Shown here: one piece after another, positions 2,760-59,852 of the stretch
How positions within the stretch are numbered: the stretch's first letter is position 1
Layout of the letters: each line of letters starts with the position of its first letter
Assembly (NCBI GenBank): GCA_000934665.2
Contig: KZ538032.1
Location: forward strand, 1 to 64,000
Source: Catajapyx aquilonaris
Taxonomy: Eukaryota
DNA length: 64,000 nt
Direction: 5' to 3'
Translations under genes and position numbers: made by a program
The notes under the pieces: model-generated
What the model saw: the letters and a program-made list of their open reading frames with translations, nothing else
Databases searched by the model: none
What the model was told of the DNA's origin: nothing

Positions 2760-3084
2760 CTAGCTGCGGCACCCGGCGTTGCCCGGGAAGAAATGAATGA
2801 AGGGAAAACACCTGCTAGTATATACCCCCGTCAACTGTCTGTCTTTCTGTGTGTCCGGCCACCATAAATGCCATCTGTGGTCCTGCTACTCCAACACCTT
2901 CAACCTCTCCCTCCTGTATAACGGCAACCGTCATTTGCCTGCCATCTGTAGTCAACCCCAAACACCCCCATCCTCTCCCGGCCTGGGGGTGGGCACAGAT
3001 GGCAGGCAAATGACGGTTGGCAGGCGGACAGACGGACAGACAGACAGACTCACAAACGGATTTATTTATATAATAATATATAGA
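2760..3084 (-). mobile_element. Complete non-autonomous Helitron (325 bp)
   Basis: Minus strand reads A|TC tatatattat...(CTGT)n microsatellite...cccgggcaacgccggg hairpin...CTAG|T: canonical termini in an AT target with no TSD. Internal inverted repeat at about 2925-3020. Confidence 0.9.
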
Positions 3085-3743: not shown

Positions 3744-5126
3744 CAGGGTTGTGAACCGAACCGAACCCTTGCTCCGTGAACCCGATAACAGCGAACCCGA
3801 TCCGGAGCAGTAGAGTCGGGTTCGGAGCGAGCGTCGGAACGGGGTTCGGGTTCAAGGCGGCTCCGGAGTTGAGTGGAGGCAAGGTCGGAGCTGGTTCGGA
3901 GCAAGCGTCGGAACGGGGTTCGGGTTCAAGCCGGTTCAGGAGAAGAGTGGAGTGAAGGTTCGGAGTTGAACCCGGTTCAGGAGCGGGGTTCGGAGCGTGT
4001 TCCGGATCGGGTTCGGAGCGGTTCAAAGCTTGGTTAGGTACAACATACCAACCCAACAGGGGGAAAGGCAGCAAAACCGCTGGATTTACTCCAGAGTATG
4101 CATCATGTTTTCATGGTGGGAGAATGACATTTCCAAGCACCCGCGATACAGGGTGTACCGCAAATGTCACATTTTCATGCATGCGCATTTTGGTATGTTA
4201 CAATATGTCATGCGCATTTTTGCATGCCACAATATGTCATACGCATTTTTTGGATGTCACATTTTCATGCATGCGCATTTTTGTATGCTACAATATGTTA
4301 TGCGCATTTTTGTTTGTTACAATATGTCATGCGCAGTTTTGTATGTCACAATATGTCATACGCATTTTTGAATGCCTCAATATACCATACCCATTTTTTG
4401 GATGTCACATTCTCATGTCATATGCATTTTTTGTATGTTACAATAATATGATATTGTAACATACAAAAAAATGCGTCAGACATGAAAATGTGACATCCAA
4501 AAAATGCGTATGACATATTGTGACAAACAAAAATGCGCATGACATATTGTAGCATACAAAAATGCGCATGACATATTGTAGCATACAAAAATGCGCATGA
4601 CATGAGAATGTGACATCCAAAAAATGGGTATGAGATATTGTGGCATACAAAAATGCGTATGACATATTGTAACATACCAAAATGCGCATGCATGAAAATG
4701 TGACATTTGCGGTACACCCTGTATCGCGGGTGCTTGGAAATGTCATTCTCCCACCATGAAAACATGATGCATACTCTGGAGTAAATCCAGCGGTTTTGCT
4801 GCCTTTCCCCCTGTTGGGTTGGTATGTTGTACCTAACCAAGCTTTGAACCGCTCCGAACCCGATCCGGAACACGCTCCGAACCCCGCTCCTGAACCGGGT
4901 TCAACTCCGAACCTTCACTCCACTCTTCTCCTGAACCGGCTTGAACCCGAACCCCGTTCCGACGCTTGCTCCGAACCAGCTCCGACCTTGCCTCCACTCA
5001 ACTCCGGAGCCGCCTTGAACCCGAACCCCGTTCCGACGCTCGCTCCGAACCCGACTCTACTGCTCCGGATCGGGTTCGCTGTTATCGGGTTCACGGAGCA
5101 AGGGTTCGGTTCGGTTCACAACCCTG
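3744..5126. mobile_element. hAT-type palindromic (foldback) element
   Basis: Termini CAGGGTTGTGAACCG / CGGTTCACAACCCTG; 8-bp TSD CTCAAAAT (3736-3743, 5127-5134); arms 3744-4148 and 4722-5126 are reverse complements; subterminal CCGAAC-type repeats. Confidence 0.9.
4149..4721. mobile_element. Tc1/mariner-like MITE with internal inverted ~29-bp minisatellite, nested at the centre of the hAT palindrome
   Basis: TA|CAGGGTGTACCGC...GCGGTACACCCTG|TA; internal units like tgtatgctacaatatgtcatgcgcatttt switch orientation near 4448. Confidence 0.75.
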
Positions 5127-7698: not shown

Positions 7699-8062
7699 AA
7701 TAAAAATAGGCAGTAAAACTGCAGAAAACTATTCTTCCTCTGATGGGTGAGATTAAAAGTAAGAAACAAGTCCATAGGTGGGGGTTGGTTCGTGTCATGG
7801 GGCTGTGTGATGATTAAATTTAATTCAAAACATTCGTGCTTTGGGACTGGGAAGAATTAGGCAGATATCGCTTTTACGTACTCCTCCGACTCTCATACTC
7901 TGCCTAATTCTTCCCAGCCCCAAAGCACGAATGTTTTGAATTAAATTTGATTATCACACATCCCTATGACACGAACCAACCCCCACCTATGGACTTGTTT
8001 CTTACTTTTAATCTCACCCAGAGGAAGAATAGTTTTCTGCAGTTTTACTGCCTATTTTTATT
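7699..8062. mobile_element. Foldback MITE (~165-bp arms, ~30-bp spacer)
   Basis: 7699-7865 is a near reverse complement of 7898-8062. Confidence 0.8.
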
Positions 8063-16244: not shown

Positions 16245-19200
16245 CAGTGGAAAAACATCCCTGAATCTGGCTCAAATTTTGACATGTGGAAACTGAAGAA
16301 TGCCCCCCCTCCCCCACTTCGAGTTACAGAGAACTTTGAGATATGGAAAGTCGACTTCCTGATGATTTTGACTGATCTCTTCAGCTAATAGAGCACTGTG
16401 AGTTAGGGATGTTCATTTGCATAAGTTTCGTTCACTATAGGCAAATTCCAGATACTGTATGAGTTTCAAAATTTGGAGCCTTGAATGCTGCTTATTATTT
16501 CCCAATAATTAAGGTCGTTAATTATTTAATTATTCATTTTTAAACGATGACATTTATCTCCTTCTTTTTCCAGTTTGACAGAAGAAGAAAATTCTAAAGT
16601 AGATTCCTCCGAGCTGCCACAAATGGTAAAGAAAGTGACTCTTGAAGATATGATTGAGCAGGAAAAGAAGATTCGGGTGGAATCGGTTCCTGCCACTCTC
16701 TACTATGTAAAGGATAAAGTGTAAGTAATTTGGTAGAGCACTGTTACCAATATTATTGTGTGTAGCCTATGCTATACAAAAGGCAAAGGTCGATTTAGTT
16801 TTCAATGATTCTCATTCAACGCTTTCACATTAAGTTATAATTATAACATCTGGTTTTCTGCTCGTAACGGGGGTGCTCGTACTGATTCTCGCAAGGGCTG
16901 CGGCTGGTCGGTTGGGAGCTCCGCTCCGACCCTGGAGGCTCCCAATAACAGAAGGCCTGGTATGAGGTCAGCTGTTGAATACTTGGCTCCGACAATGGAA
17001 GGGCCCAGTGAAGACTGGCTGCAGCAACACGCCCCAATGGGCGATGAATTATTTTTTTTTAAAAGCGAGCTAATGCCATTTAAACGCTCACTAGTCGTTT
17101 TGGGGTCCAAAAAGAACCCCGTTTCAAGTTAGCGACCGGTTTTTTTTCCTGACCACAAATAGTCCTACCCATGGTTAATTCATGATTGGCAGGTTTAAAC
17201 TTTTCGCAGGCAACTATGAAGCTTTTGAGACTGGGGCGAGGATGAGATTGTAAATGTTTACAGTATATTGATTTCTCTGTATTGGTTTGTGGCACATGCA
17301 ATGGAAATAGACTATGGGTAAACAGTGAACAACGCCTCATGAGTTAACCACGGTTAACCAAGCATCACCGGAGACCAATTTTTTGTAGGCCTATGTGCCA
17401 CTCATAGGCTAATACTGCTGTTGATGAAAGTTTATAATATAAAAACGGCGTGGGGACAAAAAAGACCCCAAGTTTCTAGTTAACCATGGCTAAATGAGGT
17501 TTAATATTGAAGGTTAAAACTCTGTATATGCAACTGACAGTTTTCGTGGTAATAACCTGTAAAATATAAGAGAACTTCTGTAATTCGAATTTTAAAGCCA
17601 CCATCAAGAAATAACAAGTTTTGTGAAGTGTGAGTTAAAGGTGATTCCATAAAATAACTTAGTTATGGTAGAAGTGAGTTCGGGTGTTATCATCAGCTGG
17701 ACGATAACCTTAATGAGAGAAAAACTTAGTACAAGGGGCCAGCCTTTAAAACTGGACAATATTTATTTTATGGAAATTAATTAAGCAAAGTTCTATCCTA
17801 TAAGCTAATGCCTGGAGTTTTTGGTGGACATGTTCGAATGAGGAATGTTTGTGTGATTACTTTACTTTGTGACCACCTATTTTTGTAATTTTTTTAATGA
17901 AAGAGAACTTGCGGGCGTTCAAATGATGGAAGTTCCTCTGCACACTGCTATTGTCGCACCAAAGGAGTAGTATTGCCTACGAATGCTGTGGTGATGCCAA
18001 TAACTACTATTGAGTATTACAGGAACACAGAAATTATGAGGGCAACGCCAAAATTGGAGGATCTTTGCAAACGCTTTGAGTACGAGCTTGTAAAACGCGC
18101 TGAACATATCCGTGCAGAAAAGCCAAAGTGTGAGCTACCACCTCGCAGGGAAAAACTGCGAATCTGCAAAGACAGAGGTACCGGTATTTCATGTCACATA
18201 ATTATTATATCTTTCTATTTTCTTATTAATTTATTTCGTTTTACAACAGCAACATGTGGTGACAGCTCAAATGACTCCAGGTCAAATGGGGATGAAAATG
18301 ACTTGGATTTGGAAGACCAGGAGATAAAACAGCATCATCCAGACGGTCTTCACCCAGAGTTGTGGTATAATGATCCTGGAGAGACGAATGTTGGTCTGTT
18401 CTGCAAATGCTCAGGTCAGGCTCGGACTTCGGGGATTAGACATGGGATTTATGCAGGTGAATCTAGGCTGACACCCTGCGATACACTTAGCAACAATGCA
18501 CAACTGCTGCATCATTACAAGATATTAATATCGCCTCCTACTAATTTTTTGGTAGGTCAATTTATAAAAATAGTATTATCTCAAGAAAATAATTACTGAT
18601 TTTTATTTTGTCACAGACAAAAACTCCAACTGTCATCCAGCATGATGACAATGAATTTATCTTTGAGGGTTTCTCTCTTCTGTCACATCAGCCTCTGAAA
18701 TATTTTCCGCCCTGCAAAGTGATGCGATTTAACATAGAACATACCATACATTACATTGAGGAAAAGATGCCTGAATATTTTGTAGTGGAAGAATTAGAAC
18801 TGTTTAGTAAGTGATTAATAACTCAACAGTTCTTTGCTGCATATTTCTGAGTGCTGCAATTGCCTTCCAGGAAAGTTTCTCTTCATAGAATTGCTGGAAC
18901 TGGTTGATCTTGACATTCATGCTGTAGGAGACAAAGATGGCTGTCCTCGATTTCACATTATGCCGCGGTTTGTAAGAGAGATTCCTAGTAAGTAAAGAAT
19001 GCAATTTTGTTTAATCTTCTTACGAAATACCGTATGTTTCCATTTTTTCAGATAATAGAAAGGAAATATTGTCTATGAATGTAGTGCTGACATATTTGGT
19101 GGAGAGCAACAAGCCGTTGATCAATGAGTCAGGTCTCCCCCGCTTATTAGAAATGCCTCATCTTGATTGGCAGAAATATGTGGCTGAGGTTAAGGGCATG

Positions 19201-22200
19201 ATTGTAACCTATCCTGGAATGAAACCGTGTTCAGTGCGAGTTGACCAACTTGACAGGCAGCAGGATCCGTGCCTGAGGAATGGGCAGCAAGTGAAGAGGG
19301 AAAGAATACAAGAGGAAAAAGAGATGAAGGAAATTGAGGAAGACAAGGTGACAGAGGCTGAAGGAAGCCATGCCTATCCTGAGATTGTTCACTTTGGAAT
19401 TAGGCCACAGCGGATAAGCTATTTACGCAACCCAGAGTAAGTTGGACAGGCACTCAAAGTTCATGCAAGAACTGAATAGATGCCATGATATTGGCTGTTT
19501 ATATGAGGCAGGGGATCTAGTCATCTGCCAAGGGCACAAATAGCATGAAAAGTATTGGGGTAGGAGGTAAAGCTCTTTCACATTTTCTCTCAAATGATTA
19601 TGCAAAATATGGGATAAAATTTCTACTGCTGTATATTGAAATTTTAACTAGTGATTTCTTCGGTGCCTATAAGGACTGAGAATGCTGCACTGGCCCAGGT
19701 TGATATGGGATTATGGGTGGAATTTTCGTCCCACTGCTAGTTACTGCTAACTTCGCAGTAGGCCTACCAGTATTGGACCTTGGTACTGCTAAGTTCACTC
19801 AGTAAATTCTAGTAGTGGGACTAAAATGCCACCATATGTCATTATGCCCACGGAGCATGATTAGTGCAGATCAGAATGCTCTTCGCCATTTGTTTAGTAT
19901 AAATTGAAAGACTAAATAATGGTGATGGAATATGTCCATTTGTGGTAGTAATATATTATTGCGTCGCATTGCAGTTGTGAGATACAAATAGCCGTTATTT
20001 ATCATTTTCTTTTTTAACTGTCTCTTTATTTAGAGTTTTAGACTAAACAAATAGCACTGAACAGTGATCTGTACTGTTGATATACATAACCATAATTATG
20101 TCAAACTGGGTCGGGGAGGCATATGTCTCAGGCTTTTCTGGTAGAATTCCATGGAAAAAAATGTATCTGGGCAAAACATTTCCATTGCAATGAAATGTAC
20201 AGCATAAGTTATATATAGTATTTTGTCAACTTTTGCATATCTCTAGTAGATGTCAAAAATTATTTGGTAACTGCAGGCTGTGATGTTGTTTATTCCATAT
20301 TTATAACCATTAATGTTCCTCGATTATCTCGATTATCCTCGATTACATGATGCTTATTTTATTCAATAATATTGCTGTCCAGTCTGCAGGAAGGAAGCCT
20401 TTTTTCCCAGTTCCCCCTCATTTGCTGTAATTCTACAGTCTCACTTCTAATCACTCATGTCTCATTTCTTGGCATTTAGAAGCTTCAAGTTTTAATGTAA
20501 ATTTTTGTATTGATTATCATTTACTTAATACAATTTTCCTAGTGTTATTCAGGTCCAATTCACACATTACATTAAAATCTTCATACTGTACTTGGACAAA
20601 TGGATAAAAATCCAGTGTCCAGAGATGAATTCTTGCTGTTGACACCGAAGCAGTGGTGGCGGAGGGGATATGGTATCCGACTGCTAATCGGGAGGTCCTG
20701 GGTTCTAATCCCGGTGCCGGCAACTCTAACCATGGTTTTCTGTGGTTTCCCACGGTTCCTCCAGGAGAATTCCGGAGGTGTTTTCTAAACTAATAGGCCA
20801 CAGCCACCTCCTTCCTTTCCTATCCTATCCCAAAAAGTGCAGTAAAAACGAAACGAAGAGTTCCAGTAAAAAAAAAATCCCCCCTAAAGAGCCGCCGGCT
20901 GATAACGGGGTATGAATAATTATAATTCTTGCTGTTGACTGAACAGTAGTTGTATTGAACAATGGGCATTCCATAAGGTTCGCTGATAATAATTTGTATG
21001 ATATAAGTTACACTGATAAGAAGGTGCAGAATTTGTACGTCACAAACCTTTTGCAATTGTTTTGATCATAACTCTTATGAAAGGCTTATTGGTTATTGTT
21101 TAATCTCACTTGTAAACATCAGATTTATGAATTGATTGCCTGAAGTACACCTTTTAAAATTTCCACATAATCCGCCTATTTTCAAATGTAATACTAATTA
21201 TTATTTAATAACTATTTTCAGGTATCAAAAGACTCGGCGTGAGTATGTAAAACTCCGTCATATTTTGGCAAACATGCCCAAGCCATCTTTTGAAGAGAAA
21301 CGAAAGCTGAAAGCCAAAGAGAAGCATCTCCAGGAGATGAGGCTGCACAACGAGCTGAAGCGATCCGTGACAGTAGCTGTTTCTAGCAAAGGATTTTACC
21401 GCAGCGGGATCATGTATGATGTAGTGCAGCATGCTATGATTATTCCTGCTCTAGTTTGCCATCTACGATTCCACCAGTCACTGTCTGTTCTGGAAGAAAT
21501 CATAGGTTACACATTCCAAAATAGATATCTGTTACAGCTGGCACTAACTCATCCTTCATACAGGCAAGAATATATTATTCATTTACATCTCACTTGTCAA
21601 GGCTGGGAGAAATTGGGCAATATTTTCTTATTTAAATCTAATATTCTTCTTGCAGTGAAAATTTTGGTACAAATCCTGATCATGCTCGCAATGCTATTAC
21701 AAATTGTGGCATACGTCACCCTGAATATGGTGACCAAAGGGCGAACCCACGTAAGAGGGGCATCAACACCTTGATTGACATAATGTCCCGTTTTGGGAAT
21801 AAGCAGGAGACAGAATCCAAGGCTACCCACAACGAGCGACTGGAGTTCTTAGGTGATGCAGTGGTGGAGTTCATCTCAACTGTCCATTTATTTTACATGT
21901 TTCCAAATTGGGAGGAGGGTTTGTTGAGCATATACAGGAATGCAAGTGTGCAGAATCAACATTTGGCCGTCTTAGCCAAGGCAAGTTTCTTTCACATTCT
22001 TCAATGAGATTTGCCTTTTGGTGGCAATAGTTTTCTAAGACACCTGTGGGTGTCATACACACTAGTGAAAGTATTTATTTCACTTTGTGGCGAAGACAAA
22101 ATTCTGGTACTTAATTTTGGCATATTTGTAAAAATACAGTATAAGTAGGCCCTGTATGTTACCAGATTCCAAGAGCAGGTATCTTTTGGTCTGAAACACT

Positions 22201-25200
22201 TTAAAATAATTTTCCACGAAATTCAAGATAGCTCATAATGGTGCATATTTTGAGCTACCATTTCCCATAAACCATGTGTCAATCTTACTTAGTATTTTAG
22301 GAACTGTGAGACCAGGAAAACGGTTATGAATATAATCCTGAAGGTAATACGAGGTGTGAGGTGTGGTCTTGCCTGTATCTATTTTTATCATTTTGACCAA
22401 TAATATTTATGGCATGAAAATGGCGACTGCCACCAGTGCCTCGTGTGGTCACTATAGTGTAGTATACTATTCACAAGCTTGCTGCTGCACTGACTCGTGT
22501 CGTCACTACTGTAATATACTATTCACACGCTTGCTGCTGCACTGCCTCAATGTTACTTAGAGGAGTATAATTATACTGTATTGAGTTTCTACATTACCGG
22601 TACTGTACTTCCTGCCACGACCTTGTCCTTGTGGATATTTTGATCAAGTGTTTTGATCCAATATCGATCCAAACTACAATATTAAACATCTATTAATTAT
22701 TTTATTTTATTTTTTATTTTTTATTATCAGGGGAATTATGCGAGTAATGTGTTACATTTTGCCAGAATTTTAAAAGGTTAAACTTCTAGCCTTCCATTTT
22801 ATGAACTATTAGTTATGTCTATATGGGGTGTAGATGTCAGTTGTTGTGCCCAACCCTTTTTGAGGTTTCATGCAAGAAAGGCAAAAATGTATGATCTGGA
22901 AGGAATGCAGAGAACCAGTCAAAACTCCTGCATGGAAATAGATCCTCTCAGTAGGGAGACGGAGTGGCGCCGCGGTAACGCGTGCGCCCACGGAAGTTAA
23001 GGTCCCGGGTTCAATCTCCACCCGGGGCTCCCACCTTCTTTCGTGCAGAGTTGGGCCATCTCTGGCTTCGTTTCGGGTGGGAATTTCCGCTAGACTAACC
23101 CACCCGGGGGAGTTCACAAAATGACCATAAAACGACATTGCACTTGCACTTTGCACATCCCCTCCTAATTACCCTTGGAGCAATTAAAATACGTATAGAT
23201 GTATCGCTCCAAAAACCTCCCCTAGAAATGGCCTCTCGGCCAGATAATGGGGTACAACTAAAAATAATAATAATAAAAATGATCCTCTCAGTAAGGTTTG
23301 TCAGAATGATGTTGCCATTTTACGTGCATACATAAAGTGAAGCCTTCAGGGAATATATATACCATCGCAACGTGTCACTATATGTGGCTTACTAAGGTCC
23401 AGTGCACCATGGATGCAGAATTTATCGTTATTTTTTATATTGTTGTCAGAAATTAATAACCAGGATAAATCTTCATAGTCCGCTTTCAGTGATGAAACTG
23501 ACCGTGAGTCTAAACTAAATTTCAAAATTTTAGACACTCAAGTTGGACCAATTTATGCTCTGCTCTCATGGTTCTGATCTGCGCAATGATGCGGATATGC
23601 GCCATGCTATGGCAAACTGCTTTGAAGCTTTAATGGGGGCCCTGTTTTTGGATGGAACCATCAAAGTGGCTGACAAAGTGTTTTCCAACACAATGTATGG
23701 TGATGACAAGGATCTCTTGGATGTGTGGGTGAATTATTCACCCCATCCTCTTCAAGAGCAGGAACCCAATGGTGATCGCCAGTGGATAAGTTCCTTCCCA
23801 ATTCTGCAGGTAGTACTTGCATTTTTTGTACTGTCTCTATTGCACATTCTAATGGTGATGACTGATGACCAATTGATTGAAGTAAGTTATATTTTTCAGG
23901 TTAGACATACAGACTTTTTGTGTGAACTTTATTTATCTTTTATTGGTATTGTTTCATTCTACAGACATTGACACAATTTGAGGAGGCAATTGGAGTGGAG
24001 TTTATTCACATCAGATTGCTAGCACGTGCTTTTTCCGATCGAAGTGTTGGATACAACAATCTGACGATGTAAGTCAGTATAGTCAAAATGTTTGATCATC
24101 AAGGTAGTTACTCGGAGATTTGTACCGGCGTTAAGGAAGTAACGTAGTATTCTTTTTTTTTTTGAAAATAGAAGCACCACTTTTTCATGAACCCTGCTTA
24201 TCCTAATTTATTTATTTATCTAATATATATTTCAAGACCTATATCTGTCTGTGACCTCATCAGTTCCATACGGAGGCCTCCTCATATGCCCCAGGGGTAT
24301 CACTAGGGGCGGTTTTTTACTGGGAAGGTTCTTAGCGCATTGGAATTGACCTCCGAGGTCATCCTTGGCCACAGGAGGCGAACAGGACTTTGGAACACTC
24401 TTCTAATAATGCGCAATTGGCTGTAAACATCACCTGTCTTGGGTTACCGGGGCAACCACTGAATGCCCAAGTCCCGTCCCCACTGCCCCCCCCCCCGTCC
24501 CATACACCCTCCCGCTCCCCCCCACCATCCCCGTTCCGTAATAATCAACATTTAACTTTCAATATTTCATTATATTACAAACACAACACAAAAAACACGT
24601 TCCCACGGCAACGACGTTCCATCGCGGTCAACAAGCAGTTCCATAATCTACACCGGCGCATTAGCAAAAACATACGGTAACAATGAAGCAACCGAAGAAG
24701 GTTGGCATAGTGGATAGGGCGTCCGACTGCTAATCGGGAGGTCCTGGGTTCGAATCCCGGGCCGGCAACCCTGACCGTGGTTTTCTGTGGTTTTCCACGG
24801 TCTTTCTAGGATAATTCCGGGGTCGCTTCCGTATAATAGGCCACAGCCGCTTCCTTCCTTCCCTATCCTTGGAGGTTGAAAGGCAATGCTGGGCCAACCT
24901 CCTTAATATCAATTATAAAAGTAACAATGAAGCCCTTGGCGACAGTGCCGGATCTACGAAATTTAGGAGGGGGGGCAGAAACCCCCACCCCCGCGGTTTG
25001 AAAGTTTGGTATCATTTTTCTGACATGGATCTTCTGCACTTCAGGCAGTGGCGCATGCAAAATGTTCTTTTGGGGGGAGCTGGTAGGCGAGGAAGCCCGC
25101 CGCAGGCGAAAATGTTTGTGTGTTCAAGGTCACACAAGCTGAGGGTGCTGAATTTCTTTCTGCCAGAAAGAAATATCATCTTCAGCGTTGTTTTGCATTT

Positions 25201-26389
25201 CTGCTGGGAAAGAGTCCCTAAGATGCACTACAGTTTTGACTACCAGTCCAAATAATATACTGTTTGCAGATATTTTCGTAATGAACGCACGTCTTGTCAT
25301 TGTCCCGGACAATACACAAGAGAAGGGTTAGCATGAAAGCTTTCTGCAGGACAAGAAGGTTAATAACTATTTCAGATCTGCATATTGCACTTGAAAGGAG
25401 TTCTGCTTAATAGGTGGCTGTAGTTTTGTCGTTACAAGTTCACAAACAATTCCAGTGTTGTCAATAACGTACATTAGAGGGTTTTCAATCATTAGAGAGC
25501 CGTGCGTCCCAATCTTTTTCGGATAGATGTGTAAAATTCGCAACCACCACTTCCAATTCAACCCTACCCCTTTCCTTTGGTGGTAGTTAATTACAATAAT
25601 CGCTAAATTAACACATCTCGTTTACGGGCAAATTTTCTAGAGAGATAGAATCAATCTGCACAAACAACTACGTAGTTAACCTTCCTCGCGACTCCAAAGG
25701 GGTTGCGACCGCAAAACGGAAAAGAACACAACAGCGGCGGATTTCCCATTAGGCACAGTAGGCACTGGCCTAGGGGCGACAGCGAGTTGCAATAAATATA
25801 TTTCTCAAATACAATAATAGGAAATTAAGGCGAGATCACTAAGAAAACGAATTTTCGAGAGCTTGATTTGCCGTATACAGGCAGATATCCCTGAACCCGA
25901 GAGACGTCGGCGCCTGTAGCAGCTGTGAGTATGGGAGTGTCAGTACTGTGTACGCGTCACCAGTGAAGTCCTGGTCCCATGCTGTCCAGCCATAAGCACG
26001 GGTGGTCATCCTGCACCTTGTCTGTGTAATGCTATAACCATTGTGTCATGTGTCGTTCAATAAATTAATGTGTACTGAGAAACTCGCCTTGATTAGGAGT
26101 GCCCCAACCCACTTCATACTGGAGAACCCGGTGGGCATCTGACCCTATCCTCACTCCCAATCATAATCCTTAATCCCAACCATAAATCCCCAAATTGACT
26201 AGTCGTTACAAAATTCCCCAGGATACACGTGTGGTGCCAAGCTGTGGCGATGGTTACATAAAACATGCTTCAAAATATTATGGACTAATGGATAATATTA
26301 TTTTGTTTGGCTATCTCAGGTCCCCACGTTGAAATAACTTATACTAACTTGAGGTGTGAAACATGTGTATTATAATAATAGTAATAATA

Positions 26390-26452
<63 letters not shown>

Positions 26453-29048
26453 TGTGGGTAATGCTTTCACCCCTTACGGGGTATATCGCATGAACCTTTA
26501 TTTTATTTTACAATTTTTCTTTAAACTTCCACTCCGGTGCAAAGAATCAAGGAATTTGGGTAAGGATAGGGATTTTTCGGGGAGGGGACACGGGTGCAGG
26601 TGCAATGTCGTTAAACGGGTCATGTGCAGTCCCCCAGGAAGTTAGGTTGCCAGACACCTCCTCGGTGCAGGTCAGAGACCCTCCTGACGCAGGTGAAGGG
26701 AGGTTCCCCAGGCGGGGATCGAACCTGGGGCCTTTCACTCAGCAAGCCGAGACGTTACCATCTCGGCCACCACACCTCCCCTCTATTCTCTACTCCATAA
26801 AGCAAATGTCACTTTCTTTGGGAATAATACGGCTAGGATGAAACCAACTTGTGTCACGAATCACACTTTCTCAGCCAAGGGCCATACCACGTCGAAAGCA
26901 CCAGTTCTCGTCCGATCACTGAAGTTAAGCGGCGTTGGGCGCGGACAGTACTTGGTTGGAAGACCACCTAGGAAAACCGCGTGCTCTTGGCCCATTTTTT
27001 TGAATCATTTTTGAATTTTTCACGCTGATTTCAGCAATTAAGATATTGTATCAAGGTCTTGGGACGATTTTTTAAAAAAATCATTCTCCTTTACTATTTG
27101 GTGAACCTTATTTGCACGAGGTTGCTGCCTCCTGATTCCCACCCTCGCCTCGGTGCTCAAATGTGAGAATGACACGTGGGTCATACAAACGAATTCTTGT
27201 TCGCCCATACCGGATGATTATCGTTCGAAATTCTCTACTCCATAAAGCAAATGTCACTTTCTTTGGGAATAATACGGCTAGGATGAAACCAACTTGTGTC
27301 ACGAATCACAATTACTCAATAATATCTCATACCTCTTGACGAGGATATAGGAGGATGGTAAATATTTCACACTTCCTTACGTCGCAGAGACCTCCGAGTA
27401 CTACTTTTGGATTCCTTACCCCGCCAAAAATTCTCATAATCGCCAATTTCCCATCCGATTTAGAGATATAGCCAAAAGAAGAATCGTGCACGTCTGACCT
27501 TGCCCATCTGCTGGTCGTTAAGTCCCCGACAACAATGGGCCCACCCCCTCTCTAGGGACCTCTCCACCCGCTCTTCCATATGTGTATTCCCCCGTCCTCC
27601 CACCCTGGTTCTCCTTTTTCGTGATACGTCATCTATAGGACGCATTCTTATCCTCTTCACCTTCAGCGGTGACGTCAAGGGTGAATGATCTGTACATATA
27701 TGCCTCCGCCATAAACAAATTGCCTTAAAAGACATGCACTGTGCACATTATCGTAACTTGCAGAGTTGCTACTACGGCATACTGCTTGACTCTTCCTATC
27801 CCGATTCATATAATTACAAAAGTTTTTGTGAACTAAAGGCATTCTTCTTCGAAATTACTAATTGAAGGGGTCGGTGCAATACTGCCCTAACCCTCCCAAA
27901 CCTGATTTGAGAAAACTGCAGTTGAAAGTTTGAGAGGCCATATACATCCCATATACCATGTGACTTATTTAATTTGATTTCTCAGTGACCGATGGCAGAA
28001 ACTGCACAATTTCAATGGATTTTATTAGATACATGAGTGTAGTACATGGAAGTGTGCTTAACTCAATTTGTGTCATTTGGTGGGTTAGGTCGGTATTGCA
28101 CCGACCCCTTCAATTAATCCGCCATTCAACGGGCCGGGTACCATACCGCTATATATATAATACAATAAAATAAATTAAATATATTATTACACCTTGATTG
28201 CAGGGGTTCCAATCAGACCCTGGAATTCCTGGGTGATGCTGTCTTGCAACTTATTGCGTCTGAATATCTATACAAATATTTTCCTGAGCATCATGAAGGG
28301 CACCTTTCAGTAAGTGTGCGATTATTATGCTACTTTCATTTCGGTAGTTTGATTGCGGATTTGTACCTCTAGCTGCTACGAAGTGCATTGGTGAGCAACA
28401 AAACCCAGGCTGTGGTCTGTAATGACCTTGGTATGGCTAATTATGCATTTTACTCCAACCCCAAACCCGTGATAAAGACAAAAGATCACGCAGATCTGCT
28501 AGAAGCATTCATAGGAGCCCTGTACGTGGACAAGGTTAGTGTGGCATTTCAAATTGTGGATAAGAAGTCATTCATTAATTAATTAACATTTTATTCACAG
28601 GGCTTGGACTATTGCCAAGTTTTCTGCAATGTTTGTCTTTTTCCTCGGATGAACGACTTCATCCTCAACCAAGAGTGGAATGATCCTAAGTCAAAGCTAC
28701 AACAGTGCTGCCTAGCTTTACGCTCAACGGATGGTAGTCCACCAGACATTCCTGTTTATAAGGTAATTGAGAGAAAGGGGTCTTCCAACTCACGTATATA
28801 CACTGTGGCTGTGTACTTCCGTGCGGAGAGGCTTGCTAAGGCATCAGGTCACTCCATACAACATGCTGGGATGAATGCTGCTAAGGAAGCACTTGCAAAA
28901 TATCAAGGTGGGAATTACTGGAGTAGATGTAGGCTTTCCATGGCTCATTTACATATCTATGCTTTTTTCAGATTTGTTTCCACAATTCACTCATCAACGC
29001 AAAGCATTGAAAAAGAGCAAAAAAAAGCAGAGGAAACCCCAGAAATAA
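11401..29048 (+). CDS. drosha: Drosha (class 2 ribonuclease III, Microprocessor nuclease), multi-exon, divergent
   Basis: Phase-consistent coding exons read by hand: 11401-11879 (Pro-rich), 11938-12168 (R/S-rich), 16574-16720, 18023-18177, 18250-18551, 18617-18806, 18871-18987, 19052-19436, 21222-21563, 21656-21980, 23534-23809, 23965-24068, 28204-28309, 28373-28534, 28601-28907, 28972-29048 (TAA). Motifs: [27 protein letters not shown], RIIIDa [15 protein letters not shown] and [16 protein letters not shown], RIIIDb [11 protein letters not shown] and [14 protein letters not shown], ds[16 protein letters not shown]. The start codon is inferred (in-frame TAG at 11380-11382). Confidence 0.96.
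11557..11660 (+). repeat. 18-bp coding minisatellite (PPPMNF) in the Drosha Pro-rich exon
   Basis: About 5.5 near-identical copies of cccacctcctatgaattt. Confidence 0.95.
12440..12791 (-). mobile_element. tRNA-derived SINE, family A
   Basis: Minus strand starts gggagacggaatggcgcgcggtaacg...gggttcgatacc (Pol III A/B boxes); homologous to 22954-23280 and 54305-54697. Confidence 0.8.
13042..13103. repeat. (GA)n microsatellite
   Basis: Directly visible. Confidence 0.98.
13588..15040. mobile_element. ~1.45-kb foldback DNA element with ~480-bp inverted arms in a Drosha intron
   Basis: 13588-14075 is a near reverse complement of 14545-15040. Ends read either CTAT|GGCCTAGTCC (4-bp TSD CTAT) or GGCC|TAGTCC (TAG termini, Academ-like); superfamily uncertain. 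Confidence 0.85.
15922..16242 (+). mobile_element. tRNA-derived SINE with V-domain-like core and (AAT)n tail, family C
   Basis: A box ggtggccgagtgg, B box gagttcgatcccc; core ttctctccgtgttcgcgtgggttttctcggggttctcccgtttcctccca; inserted in or ending in AAT repeats; relative at about 59853-60100. Confidence 0.8.
20644..20923 (+). mobile_element. tRNA-derived SINE, family B
   Basis: 16-bp TSD AATTCTTGCTGTTGAC (20628-20643, 20924-20939); tRNA-like head with ccgactgctaatcgg anticodon arm and B box; copies at about 24691, 41830 and 42530. Confidence 0.88.
22954..23280 (+). mobile_element. tRNA-derived SINE, family A
   Basis: 13-bp TSD GATCCTCTCAGTA (22941-22953, 23281-23293); A/B boxes; (AAT)n tail. 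Confidence 0.9.
24691..24925 (+). mobile_element. tRNA-derived SINE, family B
   Basis: accgaagaaggttggcatagtgg...gggttcgaatccc; homologous to 20644-20923. Confidence 0.8.
25890..26210 (+). mobile_element. Possible partial solo LTR (R/U5-like)
   Basis: AATAAA at about 26058 and terminal ...GTTACA at 26210; no matching 5' TGT end or TSD identified. Confidence 0.3.
26372..26781 (-). mobile_element. tRNA-derived SINE, family D, with adjacent (AAT)n
   Basis: Minus strand gggaggtgtggtggccgagatggt...caggttcgatcccc; highly similar to 32756-33120. Confidence 0.85.
26785..27310 (+). repeat. Identical 81-bp direct repeats (26785-26865, 27230-27310) bracketing the 5S gene; 445-bp period
   Basis: attctctactccataaagc...gtgtcacgaatcaca is present twice. 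Confidence 0.92.
26874..26993 (+). rRNA. 5S rRNA: 5S rRNA gene (divergent single copy or orphon) inside a Drosha intron
   Basis: 120 nt colinear with arthropod 5S (GCCAAgGgCCATACCACG...GTTCTCGTCCGATCAC.GAAGTTAAGC...AGTACTTGG.TGG..GACC.CCT.GGAA.ACCGCGTG..TTGGC); helix I closes; T7 Pol III terminator at 26995-27001. Confidence 0.9.
27859..28116. mobile_element. MITE with 24-bp TIR
   Basis: taattgaaggggtcggtgcaatac / gtattgcaccgaccccttcaatta. Confidence 0.8.
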
Positions 29049-29225
29049 CTGCATGGCCTCAACCCTCTGGATGAAAAATCGTTTCTTTTTGTGTCAAAAT
29101 GTTCCTTTTCTGTAGGAGTAATTCACACTGTGACTTTGTGCCATGGAGGGCTTTTCTATATCATGGCACATCTTCATCTTAGTAGCAAGCGGAAATGGAA
29201 AGTGGTACATTTTTGCACTTCCAAA

Positions 29226-29310
29226 AATTTAAGGGTCGCCCCGAATAATGTTGTAAGTGACATTGGTTACCGTGATCACTTACAACATTATTCGGGGCGA
29301 CCCTTCAATT
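29226..29310. repeat. Mini-MITE hairpin in the predicted Drosha 3' UTR
   Basis: Perfect 30-bp stem (29231-29260 / 29276-29305), one mismatch, 4 more bp, 15-nt loop; termini resemble the MITE at 27859. Confidence 0.9.
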
Positions 29311-29946
29311 GCAGTGGCGGATCTAGACGTCGTTGTTGGGGGGGGGGGTGATTTGTCGCCTCGCTCGCCCCCCCCCCTCCCCAACCCCAAATAGCCCGCC
29401 GCAGGCGAAATTTTTTTAAAACTCTGTAAGCACATCGGATAAAACTGAAAAAGTGATGCCAGTTTGTGATAGGGGATTGTGCCTGTCCGTAGCTGTACCG
29501 TAGCCCGTACCGTAGTACCGTAGCCGTGGCCTGTACGTAGTTGGGCATCTTCAAGGGATGCCCCGCGCCCCTGGAAACGTCCCACTGCGGTCCGGCCCAT
29601 CCGCACAGGGGCCGCCCCTAAGGCCGCTTCTGCTGCCCCGCCCAAAGTAACGATGACGCCATCTTTACTTTGGGCGTGATTGGCATCACTTTGCTTGTAT
29701 GGAAAGGGATAGCGAGTTATGTATCCAGATGAATAAAATATAGTAGATATCTTTGGTCAGAACACTCAGAAGCACCAACTTTTCAGACTGTCTCCGTCCC
29801 AGTCTGCATCACTCTAGAGTGAAATATCACGTATATTAGGTGAGAATAACATTGACATCTTCTTTAATACATATCCAAAATTGTATATACATAATGGGTT
29901 AAGTCGCGCAGGACCAAGTTTCTGTTGCAATCTTCACCGACGGATC

Positions 29947-45704
<15,758 letters not shown>

Positions 45705-57344: not shown

Positions 57345-57906
57345 CAGGGTGTTAATGAATTCAATCGACAAACTTGTAGGGGTAATAAAGGGGACCAAGA
57401 TAAATATTTTTGACATAGGAAACCGTGTCCGGAAACGCCATCTAGAGGGGGTTCATATACAAGGAACGGGTGCGCTCAGACGCTTCACGCGGGAGGCGCT
57501 AGTCGAGCGGACTGTTTTGTTGATAGATGGCGCGCAGGTGTTGCCAGGTTATGGTGTATCGTGTCGTTGTAAGTAAACAACAACGCGATACGCCATAACC
57601 TGGCAACAACAGAACCGCTGTTGACTATCCGCGCGTCTCCTGGGAGGAGGACTTTAGTTGCTAGATGGCTCTGCTGTTGCCACGTTATGGCACATCGCAT
57701 CGTAGGTTACTATCCGAGCGCCATCTATCAACAAAACAATCCGCTCACCTAGCACCTCTCGCGTGACGCGTCTGAGCGCACCCGTTCCTTGTCTATGAAC
57801 CCCCTCTTGATAGCGTTTCCGGACACGGTTTCCTATGTCAAAAATGTTTGTCTTGGTCCCCTCTATTACCCCTACAAGTTTGTCGATTGAATTCATTAAC
57901 ACCCTG
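57345..57906. mobile_element. Tc1/mariner-like foldback MITE
   Basis: TA|CAGGGTGTTAATGAATTC...GAATTCATTAACACCCTG|TA; ~190-bp arms. Confidence 0.88.
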
Positions 57907-59095
57907 TATAGAGCCATGTGTTTTCAACAAAAAGCACAAATTCGGCGTATAAGTTACTTTTAAATATATGTAATTCAATAATTAATTTAGCCCTCTGCTC
58001 ATAATCATTTTGTTAATGAAAGACTGGGAGAGTCAACTTCCTTGTCTTCCCCTCTCCCCTTTAACCCTTGCACAAGCCCGGAGGGAACAAAAATAATTAT
58101 AATAAAATAATCATATGTTTGTGAGGTGAGAAAGAGAAGGGGGGGATTCAGTCCATGCATTTTTTCGAAACATATTCCACTAAAATGGTGTACGCAGTTC
58201 CTGAATTTCACTAGGTTAGTTAAGCGCATAATTGGGCAGTACTGTGTGTATTACTAACAATTAGCGATGCTTTTATATTGTTCCACATAGTTCTGATGCT
58301 CATTCATGTTTAATTAGAAAATTGACCATAGGCATAGTATAGGTTTGAAACATTGCAATTGGCGGCGCTCGTCTGATCCCATCAAATGAGGCACGCAGGC
58401 GAGGCACGTGACATTTTTGGGGGGAAAAGAAACCTCTCATAGCATTTTATAGGCTCTCTTTCTCTCAGGCTCGGAGTTGTTGGACTCGACAATAAAAGAG
58501 ACCGTAAATCTCTAGATGATGGAACTTCAGTGGTAGTGGATACCGGAAATAAATATGTCACATCAGGGAAGTGCTGTTTAATACCTCGTGGATCACGGCA
58601 AAGTTGATTAGTAAATCGTTAACCAGTTACCTCCTAAATTACGAGCGAGCCTATTATACCTATTATTTTTTTTGCAAACACCTACGAAAGGCACTTACGA
58701 GAATTAGATCCTTCATCACTTTAATTACTAAGCCGCAAAAGCCAATGCATAAGCGACGTATTAATTGGAGAACACCTCATCCAATCCTCCCCCATTTCAT
58801 GCCCAGTAAAATCTTCCTTTTCAAATAATGTCCTCAGGGGACAATGTCAAAAATCACTCTTAATAGTGTAGCTATTTTCAGGAGCTTGTCGAGATTATGG
58901 CAGAATTTTAGATTCTTAGTGGCACCTTGGAAGGCCAACAAAGTTTGGATAGTTTGGCGGGAAGGTTCCACAGAGATTTGAACTCTGACCTCTGGATTAT
59001 ATGGTCCAGTGTGCTACCATTACACTATGGAACCTACATGGCCAATCTTTCAGAACTAAGAAAATGCCTTGCAACAATTCATCTTCTGACATATA

Positions 59096-59187
59096 CAGGG
59101 TGTTCCAGATTCGTGGGTCATTTTTTGATAACTGATATCGCCCGATAGCAGTTATCAAAAAATGACCCACGAATCTGGAACACCCTG
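59096..59187. mobile_element. 92-bp Tc1/mariner-like mini-MITE (near-perfect hairpin)
   Basis: TA|CAGGGTGTTCCAGATTCGTGGGTCATTTTTTGATAACTG and its exact reverse complement around a short loop. Confidence 0.9.
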
Positions 59188-59852
59188 TATAGAACGAACA
59201 ATGAGCAACAAGCAATGTGAAACGTGAAAGCAATACCTCCAACTCTGGATTAAATGACACCGATGTGAACTTTCAATACAATGCTTATATGCCTGAGAAT
59301 TAGCCGTAAGCTACAATGGGATGGCTTCTCACTTCTGCCTCTGTAGATGAACTTGATTGCCTGAGCATAGCTATTGTTCCACCGCATGTGTTAACAACAG
59401 CCAGAAAATACCTGAGTGGTAAATGGAAAAAAGAAAACTTTATATGCCAGAATCCAGCGTTTGACAGATGTGAGGTTTCTCTAGTGCAACTATAGGCCTA
59501 ATAATAGTGAATCATACATTCCCAATATTGCTCTTAGCACTCTTGCATTACATCAGAAGGGGCAGGATGTTTGTGGGTGTGAAACTCCGCGTGGAGGTGA
59601 GCAAGTGTAACCATGAGGTGTAACCACTGACTTGGACTTGCGTATAGTAACGTAATTCTAGGTTGATTAAAATATAGTTAATGATTACGCAAAGACAGGA
59701 AGCTCAATTGTTACCAGAAAATTTGTGATATCGTGGAGATGATATGCGTTTATGCCAAGCTGGTACAACAAAAATTCATATTCGCCTCCCAAGACACAAT
59801 AAATCATAATACAGACTTAGACGTCAATAAATTGCACCATTTCCATATTATC

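What the first reader, a model, noticed from the sequence alone, without database searches (positions are those of the whole stretch)
29226..29310. Microprocessor-shaped hairpin in Drosha's own predicted 3' UTR: candidate transposon-derived autoregulatory switch
Seen: about 180 nt after the Drosha stop (29048) there is a stem spanning 35 positions (30 perfect bp, one mismatch, 4 bp) with a 15-nt loop and unpaired flanks. I see no AATAAA between the stop and the hairpin (first at about 29732), so it is probably in the mRNA. Its ends resemble the MITE TIR at 27859. Known: Microprocessor prefers ~35-bp stems with a loop of 10 nt or more and ssRNA flanks, and Drosha destabilises DGCR8/pasha mRNA by cutting hairpins in it. 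Inference: a domesticated mini-MITE could let Drosha cut off its own poly(A) tail (negative feedback) and/or release a miRNA.
Basis: partly seen in the sequence, partly recalled or inferred. Interest (0 to 1): 0.8.

Follow-up and report, generated by a model that had tools for sequence, protein, structure and literature searches.

The report
Small transposon hairpin downstream of Drosha
The hairpin after the Drosha gene is real, but it is one copy of a tiny, abundant jumping-DNA element in a genome full of such hairpins, and nothing yet shows that Drosha uses it to control itself.

Summary
Positions 29226-29310 form a 35-position stem (one mismatch) with a 15-nt spacer, 177 nt after the stop codon of a true Drosha gene. 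None of 20 poly(A) hexamers tested lies between stop and hairpin, and the first AATAAA is at 29732.

The hairpin is not a private feature of this gene. In DNA runs of one sample the unique contig stops inside the left arm. Summed contig depth over the hairpin is about 200-290 times that of the unique flanks, and other copies carry different flanks or a longer interior. Its ends share a 10-nt terminal word with the intronic MITE at 27859-28116.

The next 450 bp, including the AATAAA, are also repeat DNA. The window holds eight comparably strong single hairpins in 64 kb. Three of four canonical pri-miRNA sequence motifs are missing, and Rfam gives only sub-threshold hits on both strands.

Inclusion in the mRNA, cleavage and small RNAs could not be tested, because no RNA contig covered Drosha.

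Verdict: an ordinary 85-bp MITE copy, probably in the 3' UTR. The autoregulation idea is possible but unsupported.

The parts
18021..28909 (+). Drosha coding exons held in the window (central region, both RNase III domains, dsRBD), separated by introns
   Evidence: tblastn of three arthropod Droshas, P0003, P0004 and P0039. Pfam Ribonuclease_3 on 28169-28582 and dsrm on 28583-29074. Human DROSHA chains at E 1.4e-35 for 28601-28907.
27859..28116 (.). 258-bp MITE in the Drosha intron, with 41-nt TIRs (90% complementary) and the same terminal word as the hairpin
   Evidence: I1; sequence; motif; alignment A1
28972..29048 (+). Last coding exon of Drosha; stop TAA at 29046-29048
   Evidence: Sequence and frame. 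The start of its translation (DLFPQ...) matches the tail of ortholog P0004. The splice acceptor was read by eye (inference).
29049..29225 (+). Single-copy DNA after the stop; presumed proximal 3' UTR; no poly(A) hexamer
   Evidence: Unique contig 28100-29260 at depth 18-29. 0 of 20 hexamers found here.
29226..29310 (.). 85-bp mini-MITE, the hairpin. Left arm 29226-29260, spacer 29261-29275, right arm 29276-29310. AATT stands at both outer ends and may be a target duplication or part of the TIR.
   Evidence: structure; high summed depth, loose ends at 29226, 29267 and 29311; termini
29311..29765 (.). GC-richer block (55% GC against 41% for the window) of other repeat DNA. It holds G11/C9 runs, an 11-nt tandem array at 29481-29540 and a 17-nt-arm hairpin at 29639-29676. 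Family not identified.
   Evidence: Summed depth 190-2600 against 18-34 on unique DNA; loose ends at 29312, 29447, 29526 and 29729; the unique contig resumes at 29766.. No tRNA found.
29732..29737 (+). First AATAAA after the Drosha stop; lies inside the repeat block
   Evidence: position; other copies of the repeat run across this place with other flanks
29897..30378 (-). 3' end of a convergent tyrosine-kinase gene. An RNA-like contig has a 62-nt intron (30211-30272) removed. The stop codon lies at about 29947-29949. A minus-strand ATTAAA lies at 29863-29868.
   Evidence: X5 record 30; joint 30210>30273, CT..AC on +; PK_Tyr_Ser-Thr, E 3.7e-4, 20.3 bits, below the 23.1 cut-off

Best explanation
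The hairpin is an 85-bp copy of a high-copy miniature inverted-repeat transposable element, made almost only of its two terminal inverted repeats. It inserted about 177 nt downstream of the Drosha stop codon. It lies next to a further 450 bp of unrelated repeat DNA, in the roughly 900-bp space between two convergent genes.

Its fold follows from transposon architecture: two TIRs back to back. If Drosha uses the first canonical AATAAA at 29732, which is itself repeat-borne, the element is carried in the 3' UTR as a passenger (inferred, not shown).

As RNA it would form a near-perfect 35-bp duplex that any dsRNA-handling enzyme could meet. There is no sign that it was selected for a role in Drosha regulation.
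For: **High copy number**
- In three DNA runs of one sample the unique contig covers 28100-29260 and stops at the end of the left arm. Unique DNA resumes at 29766.
- Summed contig depth in bin 29234-29314 is 8426, 4456 and 6011, against 29.4, 18.4 and 29.4 on the upstream unique DNA.
- Contigs laid per run numbered 235, 202 and 219; of these, 28, 25 and 28 fit both arms.

**Sharp family borders**
- Loose ends lie at 29226 (before) and 29311 (behind). The flanks at 29311 disagree among copies (agreement about 0.5).
- At 29267 other copies continue with a shared, different interior. Longer family members therefore exist, and this copy is an internally deleted form.

**The short form is itself repeated**
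- Contigs cross the spacer with 3 changed letters at summed depth 292-586.
- One 72-nt contig covers 29234-29305 with 7 differences.

**Shared termini**
- The terminal word AATT[G/T]AAGGG occurs 4 times in the window, only at the four termini of this element and of the intronic MITE 27859-28116 (alignment).

**Base rate in this window**
- 103 inverted-repeat pairs of at least 22 nt lie within 1500 nt of each other.
- Eight single-hairpin loci reach -59 kcal/mol or lower in 110-nt windows. This one ranks 4th. Controls were folded.

**No miRNA signature**
- Rfam gives no family-level match. The best is mir-986 at 33.7 bits against a gathering score of 70, and it scores almost the same on the opposite strand.
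Against: - The stem spans 35 positions, the optimum stated for Microprocessor substrates (passages of PMC10954719).
- A GUG sits at the apical end of the 5' arm (29257-29259).
- It lies behind Drosha's own stop codon with no poly(A) hexamer in between.
- Palindromic mini-MITEs of nearly the same build (Made1: 37-bp TIRs plus 6 bp) did become miRNA genes in humans (PMC1784062, passages).
- Non-canonical mRNA substrates of Drosha lack the canonical motifs anyway (PMC10954719, abstract and passages). Their absence here therefore does not exclude cleavage.
- The summed depth is explicitly not a copy number (tool caveat).
- All DNA runs come from one sample, which may be the one the window was assembled from.
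Confidence: 0.8

Rival explanations
1. First reader's idea. The hairpin lies in the Drosha mRNA and is cut by Drosha-Pasha about one helical turn from its base. The cut removes the poly(A) tail, giving negative feedback on Drosha level, and possibly releases a pre-miRNA.
For: - The stem has 35 positions, a nominal 15-nt loop and an apical GUG.
- No poly(A) hexamer lies upstream.
- Precedents: Drosha cuts hairpins in Dgcr8 mRNA (PMC3814725, passages). Human DROSHA targets a hairpin in its own transcript (PMC5473138, abstract). Made1 gave rise to mir-548 (PMC1784062).
Against: - It is one of many copies of a repeat family, and similar hairpins are common in the window. Its position behind Drosha is within reach of chance: about 8 such loci per 64 kb gives roughly a 1-in-10 chance for a 700-nt UTR.
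- No basal UG, no mGHG, and the only CNNC after the stem is at 29328, 18 nt past the base.
- The minimum-energy fold shrinks the loop to 4 nt.
- The stem is almost perfect, unlike most natural pri-miRNAs (general knowledge, recalled).
- There is no evidence of transcription through it, of cleavage or of conservation.
Confidence: 0.05
2. The hairpin is transcribed as part of the 3' UTR and handled by other dsRNA pathways: Dicer-dependent endo-siRNA production directed against the transposon family, or A-to-I editing. Any effect on Drosha mRNA would be a side effect.
For: - A near-perfect 30-bp run of pairs.
- Family copies appear inside contigs of X5 with other flanks (records 25-27). X5 behaves as an RNA run, because one of its contigs lacks a GT..AG intron.
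- Hairpin RNAs feed siRNA pathways in arthropods (recalled, not checked here).
Against: - No small-RNA data.
- 35 bp is short for known hairpin-RNA siRNA loci (recalled).
- The taxon is only loosely placed. The 120 of 463 homologues listed are arthropod or unnamed, at 71-78% identity.
Confidence: 0.1
3. The hairpin is not in any mature mRNA. Drosha is polyadenylated upstream at a non-canonical signal, and the element sits in untranscribed or read-through intergenic DNA.
For: - No RNA contig covers any Drosha exon or the UTR, so inclusion is unproven.
- The only AATAAA lies in a repeat 680 nt after the stop.
- A share of animal genes use non-canonical signals (recalled).
Against: - None of 20 hexamer variants lies in 29049-29225.
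- A 177-nt or shorter UTR without any signal would be unusual.
Confidence: 0.25
4. The exact 85-bp arm-spacer-arm structure at this locus is an assembly collapse of a longer family member.
For: - No contig bridges from unique DNA across the spacer. The unique contig ends at 29260.
- Longer copies with another interior exist (loose ends at 29267).
Against: Contigs with the same short architecture exist in the same sample (e.g. 29234-29305 with 7 differences, tables 3 and 8).
Confidence: 0.1

Closest known systems
Made1 / MiHsmar1 MITEs of the human genome, source of the hsa-mir-548 family (PMC1784062; abstract and passages read)
   Same: - A tiny palindromic MITE made of two long TIRs flanking a few bases: Made1 is 37 + 6 + 37 = 80 bp, this element 35 + 15 + 35 = 85 bp.
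- It forms a stable hairpin from either strand, is multi-copy and is found in transcribed regions.
   Different: - Made1 derives from the mariner element Hsmar1. For this element no autonomous partner, superfamily or target duplication is established.
- For Made1 mature miRNAs were observed. Here no RNA evidence exists.
Microprocessor feedback hairpins: two hairpins at the 5' end of Dgcr8 mRNA (PMC3814725, passages) and the exon 7-intron hairpin of human DROSHA (PMC5473138, abstract)
   Same: A pri-miRNA-like hairpin lying in, or here presumed to lie in, the transcript of a Microprocessor component.
   Different: - Those hairpins are gene-specific and conserved (the DROSHA one across mammals), and they sit at the 5' end or at an exon-intron junction.
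- This one is a repeat copy downstream of the stop codon, with conservation and cleavage untested.
Non-canonical mRNA substrates of Drosha in mouse ES cells (PMC10954719; abstract and passages)
   Same: A stem-loop in an mRNA that lacks the canonical basal UG, CNNC and mGHG motifs.
   Different: Those substrates are described as less stable and structurally more ambiguous than miRNA hairpins. This one is an unusually stable, near-perfect duplex (z about -10).
The 258-bp MITE in the Drosha intron of the same window (27859-28116)
   Same: The first 10 nt of the terminus are identical, followed by TCG one position later, plus scattered matches further in. AATT stands at both outer ends.
   Different: The rest of the TIR and the interior differ. 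Only 17 of 45 columns are invariant across the four termini. It is a related but separate family, probably mobilised by a similar transposase (inference).

Membership tests
MITE (non-autonomous DNA transposon) | Terminal inverted repeats | tested here: met
   35-nt arms, 34 of 35 complementary
MITE (non-autonomous DNA transposon) | Small size, no coding capacity | tested here: met
   85 bp in all, with 15 nt between the arms
MITE (non-autonomous DNA transposon) | Many copies with the same ends and different flanks | tested here: met
   Summed contig depth is 200-290 times that of the unique flanks. Loose ends at 29226 and 29311 carry disagreeing flanks. Caveats: one sample, contigs only, and depth is not a formal copy number. 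There is a single copy in the 64-kb window itself.
MITE (non-autonomous DNA transposon) | Target-site duplication | tested here: inconclusive
   AATT stands at both outer ends of this element and of the related MITE at 27859. Because AATT is its own reverse complement, it may be a 4-bp or 2-bp (AT) duplication or simply part of the TIR. No duplication lies outside AATT in either element.
MITE (non-autonomous DNA transposon) | Related autonomous element with a transposase | not testable with these tools
   No genome is held for this window. There were no matches in metagenome contigs or viral contigs.
Canonical pri-miRNA hairpin (Microprocessor substrate) | Stem of about 35 +/- 1 bp | tested here: met
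   35 positions with one mismatch. Criterion from PMC10954719.
Canonical pri-miRNA hairpin (Microprocessor substrate) | Terminal loop larger than 10 nt and unstructured flanks | tested here: inconclusive
   The spacer is nominally 15 nt, but the minimum-energy fold pairs 4 more positions and leaves 4 nt. The flanks form a few weak pairs or a neighbouring 9-bp hairpin.
Canonical pri-miRNA hairpin (Microprocessor substrate) | Sequence motifs: basal UG, apical UGU/GUG, CNNC, mGHG | tested here: not met
   Only the apical GUG (29257-29259) is present. There is no UG at the base, the mismatch is not flanked by G, and the only CNNC within 40 nt after the stem is at 29328. The expected positions of the motifs are recalled. 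The motifs were defined in mammals and are said to be redundant.
Canonical pri-miRNA hairpin (Microprocessor substrate) | Match to a described miRNA family | tested here: not met
   Best Rfam match is mir-986 at 33.7 bits against a gathering score of 70, with 32.6 bits on the opposite strand.
Canonical pri-miRNA hairpin (Microprocessor substrate) | Small RNAs with Drosha/Dicer-type ends | not testable with these tools
   No RNA holder was listed for the stretch. The one RNA-like run has no contig on Drosha.
Microprocessor autoregulatory hairpin (Dgcr8 5' hairpins, human DROSHA exon 7 hairpin) | Lies within the mature or primary transcript of a Microprocessor subunit | tested here: inconclusive
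   It is downstream of the stop with no poly(A) hexamer before it. No transcript evidence.
Microprocessor autoregulatory hairpin (Dgcr8 5' hairpins, human DROSHA exon 7 hairpin) | Conserved at the orthologous site in related species; Drosha-dependent cleavage | not testable with these tools
   No eukaryotic genomes or degradome data are on hand.

The most novel reading that the evidence does not exclude
An 85-bp palindromic MITE that landed in the 3' UTR of Drosha is cut by Drosha-Pasha. Drosha would thereby remove its own poly(A) tail, and perhaps release a young miRNA. This would be a transposon-born negative feedback loop on the Microprocessor nuclease itself, in an invertebrate. It would be a third, independent route to Microprocessor self-control, beside the Dgcr8 5' hairpins and the human DROSHA exon 7 hairpin.
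Probability: 0.05. Interest if true: 0.7.

Novelty: new member of a known kind. Interest (0 to 1): 0.15.

Why it matters
As it stands the finding matters little. A MITE copy in or near a 3' UTR is routine in a repeat-rich animal genome.

It is a useful caution: palindromic mini-MITEs have pri-miRNA dimensions by construction, so shape alone cannot flag a Microprocessor substrate.

If the feedback reading were shown, it would be a clear case of a transposon creating self-regulation of the miRNA-processing nuclease. It would also show live how Made1-like elements become miRNA genes.

A smaller point of interest is the family itself. It is 85 bp long, with AATT at both ends, and its terminal word was found in no relevant paper of the held library: the single hit was an unrelated mouse cancer paper.

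Tried and rejected
- **Whole-genome copy count.** No genome is held for this window.
- **Earlier findings.** Nothing by place or by sequence. A search by words returned only bacterial MITE reports from other genomes, which do not bear on this case.
- **RNA evidence.** No RNA holder was listed. Run X5 behaves as RNA, because one contig lacks a 62-nt GT..AG intron of the neighbouring kinase gene. It has no cover on Drosha exons or on 29049-29225, which says nothing either way.
- **Empty-site allele.** No contig joins across 29226-29310 (table 5). Contigs cannot show absence.
- **Other copies elsewhere.** Exact-word scans of metagenome contigs (two words) and viral contigs gave 0 matches.
- **Literature search by TIR words.** 1 paper was found, an unrelated mouse cancer paper, seen as a search listing only.
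- **Search for a superfamily with an AATT duplication.** 12 of 101 papers were listed and none holds 'AATT', so the superfamily is left open.
- **Failed query.** One paper search failed on a term's syntax. A different question was asked instead.
- **Downstream block as a tRNA-derived SINE.** No tRNA found.
- **Hairpin plus downstream block as one composite element.** Rejected. Copies of the hairpin family end at 29310 and copies of the next repeat begin at 29312, each with disagreeing flanks.
- **Naming the organism.** The 120 listed of 463 Drosha homologues are arthropod-named or unnamed at 71-78% identity and none is near-identical. The taxon is left as 'probably an arthropod'.

Full report
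**1. The observation**

The window has a near-perfect inverted repeat at 29226-29310. The arms are 29226-29260 and 29276-29310, 35 nt each and 97% complementary, with 15 nt between them. A direct comparison shows 34 of 35 positions pairing, with the single mismatch at the fifth position from the base.

Folded as RNA, 29180-29360 gives -86.6 kcal/mol against -48.6 +/- 4.2 for 200 shuffles (z -9.0). The 125-nt stretch 29206-29330 gives z -10.6 on the + strand and -11.4 on the - strand. The structure is therefore real, far beyond chance, and the same from either strand.

- The minimum-energy fold pairs four more positions inside the 15-nt spacer and leaves a 4-nt loop.
- The flanks form a few weak pairs or a neighbouring 9-bp hairpin.

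**2. The gene context**

The ORF pieces upstream carry Pfam Ribonuclease_3 (28169-28582) and dsrm (28583-29074). The dsRBD exon 28601-28907 matches human DROSHA chains (6lxd, 6v5b, 5b16, 9asm) at E about 1e-35.

Three arthropod Droshas map by tblastn onto 18021-28909 in exon-like blocks. The last exon (28972-29048) begins DLFPQ..., as does the tail of ortholog P0004. It ends at TAA 29046-29048. The hairpin starts 177 nt later.

Of 463 homologues at E <= 1e-20, 120 are listed. All of these are arthropod-named or unnamed, at 71-78% identity, and none is near-identical. The organism is probably an arthropod, but this is not firm.

A convergent tyrosine-kinase gene lies downstream on the minus strand. 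Its C-terminal exon gives a weak PK_Tyr_Ser-Thr match (E 3.7e-4, 20.3 bits, below the 23.1 cut-off). One contig of run X5 covers 29897-30210 and 30273-30378 and skips 62 nt whose ends are CT..AC on the + strand, that is GT..AG on the minus strand. X5 therefore behaves as an RNA run, and the kinase mRNA reaches down to at least 29897.

**3. Is the hairpin in the Drosha mRNA?**

None of 20 poly(A) hexamers that I scanned for lies in 29049-29225. The hexamer list is recalled and comes from no call. The first AATAAA is at 29732.

No RNA holder was listed for the stretch, and X5 has no contig on any Drosha exon. The AATAAA at 29732 itself lies in repeat DNA (see section 4).

**4. What the hairpin is**

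The window holds only this copy, and no genome is held. Contigs of three DNA runs of one sample gave the following:
- A unique contig covers 28100-29260 at depth 18-29 and ends exactly at the end of the left arm. Unique DNA resumes at 29766.
- In between, summed contig depth rises to 8426 / 4456 / 6011 in the bin 29234-29314, and to 190-2600 over 29315-29800.
- 202-235 contigs were laid per run, and 25-28 of them fit both arms.

The tool warns that summed depth is not a copy number. Even so, a 200-290-fold excess together with the loose ends is what a high-copy repeat gives.

The loose ends are informative:
- Matches begin at 29226 and end at 29310/29311, and the flanks beyond 29311 disagree among copies (agreement about 0.5).
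- At 29267 several contigs continue with a shared but different interior. Longer family members therefore exist, and the window's copy is an internally deleted, TIR-only form.
- This short form is itself repeated. Contigs cross the spacer with three changed letters at summed depth 292-586, and one 72-nt contig covers 29234-29305 with 7 differences.
- Copies of the arms also sit in X5 contigs with other flanks (records 25-27).

**5. Relation to the intronic MITE**

The word AATT[G/T]AAGGG occurs four times in the 64 kb (both strands). These are exactly the two termini of the hairpin and the two termini of the 258-bp element at 27859-28116. That element has 41-nt TIRs at 90% complementarity.

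The four termini share the first 10 nt, a TCG displaced by one base, and scattered positions further in. 17 of 45 columns are invariant. I read this as two related families served by similar transposases (inference).

AATT stands at both outer ends of both elements. Because it is its own reverse complement, it may be a fixed target duplication (4 bp, or 2 bp AT) or part of the TIR, and I could not decide between these. A literature search for an AATT duplication found nothing useful. The terminal words occur in only one, unrelated, paper of the library.

**6. The neighbourhood**

Positions 29311-29765 are a GC-richer block: 55% against 41% for the window. It is made of other repeat DNA. Copies begin at 29312 with disagreeing upstream flanks, and internal break points lie at 29447 and 29526. 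The block holds G11 and C9 runs, an 11-nt tandem array and a 17-nt-arm hairpin at 29639-29676. No tRNA-like part was found.

About three quarters of the presumed 3' UTR would thus be repeat-derived.

**7. Base rate**

The window is full of foldback DNA:
- 103 inverted-repeat pairs of at least 22 nt lie within 1500 nt of each other.
- In a sliding 110-nt fold of the + strand (6390 windows; mean -21.2, sd 7.6 kcal/mol), 19 loci reach -45 kcal/mol or lower.
- Eight of them are single long hairpins at -59 or lower: 59091, 31791, 2921, 29231, 57531, 7831, 30841 and 4391. The Drosha-side hairpin ranks fourth.
- Four of these, folded as controls, give z from -8 to -17.

One such hairpin per about 8 kb means that a 700-nt UTR has roughly a one-in-ten chance of holding one.

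**8. Microprocessor likeness**

Passages of PMC10954719 give the features of an optimal substrate:
- a stem of about 35 +/- 1 bp;
- a loop above 10 nt;
- single-stranded flanks;
- the motifs basal UG, apical UGU/GUG, CNNC, mGHG and midBMW.

Here the stem length fits and a GUG lies at the apical end of the 5' arm (29257-29259). There is no UG at the base, and the mismatch is flanked by U and A rather than by G. The only CNNC within 40 nt after the stem starts at 29328, 18 nt past the base. The expected positions of the motifs are from recall.

Rfam gives only sub-threshold, strand-symmetric hits (mir-986 at 33.7 and 32.6 bits; gathering score 70). This is what any long palindrome yields.

The same paper reports that mRNA substrates of Drosha lack these motifs, so their absence does not exclude cleavage.

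**9. Comparison with what is known**

- The closest analogue in build is Made1, an 80-bp human MITE of two 37-bp TIRs and 6 bp. It folds from either strand and gave rise to the mir-548 family (PMC1784062, abstract and passages).
- Feedback on the Microprocessor through hairpins is known for Dgcr8 mRNA (PMC3814725, passages).
- It is also known for a conserved exon 7-intron hairpin in human DROSHA (PMC5473138, abstract and outline only).
- The reference list of PMC3814725 also cites the autoregulation of bacterial RNase III by cleavage of its own operon leader (the papers themselves were not read).

What is missing is any evidence that this copy differs from its many siblings.

**10. Verdict**

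Placement in the 3' UTR is plausible but unshown.

I put 0.8 on an ordinary passenger MITE copy and about 0.05 on real Drosha feedback.

**What remains open**
- the true 3' end of the mRNA;
- small RNAs and cleavage ends;
- copy number from a full assembly;
- polymorphism, and presence at the orthologous site in relatives;
- the exact local structure, because no contig bridges it from unique DNA.

Noticed in passing
window 29732-29737 within 29526-29765: The only canonical AATAAA downstream of the Drosha stop lies inside a high-copy repeat. Other copies of that repeat run across the same place with other flanks. If it is used, Drosha's poly(A) signal is transposon-supplied.
   Followed up: partly
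window 59092-59191: A 100-bp near-perfect palindrome (43 + 4 bp stem, -83 kcal/mol, z -16.6) whose outer ends start with TA followed by TACAGGGTG. It looks like another mini-MITE of a different family and is the strongest hairpin of the window.
   Followed up: partly
window 3744-5126: A large foldback with 526-nt arms at 99% complementarity and 331 nt between them, containing nested shorter inverted repeats.
   Followed up: no
window 2925-3019, 57539-57608, 30829-30962, 31630-32063, 7699-8062: Further long hairpin-forming inverted repeats, several of pri-miRNA-like size. The one at 30829-30962 lies upstream of the kinase gene's last exons, within that gene's region.
   Followed up: partly
window 29897-30378 (-): A convergent tyrosine-kinase gene. 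A 62-nt intron (30211-30272) is confirmed by an RNA-like contig, and the 3' ends of the two genes would lie only about 100-150 nt apart if the signals at 29732 (+) and 29863 (-) are used.
   Followed up: partly
window 26661-26770 and 33001-33110; also 26790-26860 and 27230-27300: Pairs of stretches with nearly the same predicted fold or the same translated ORF piece. This suggests further dispersed repeat families inside and outside the Drosha introns.
   Followed up: no
window 26370-26470 and 45138-45231: Long microsatellites: a trinucleotide run that reads as poly-Ile/Tyr/Leu in ORF lists, and a 6-nt-period self-complementary array.
   Followed up: no
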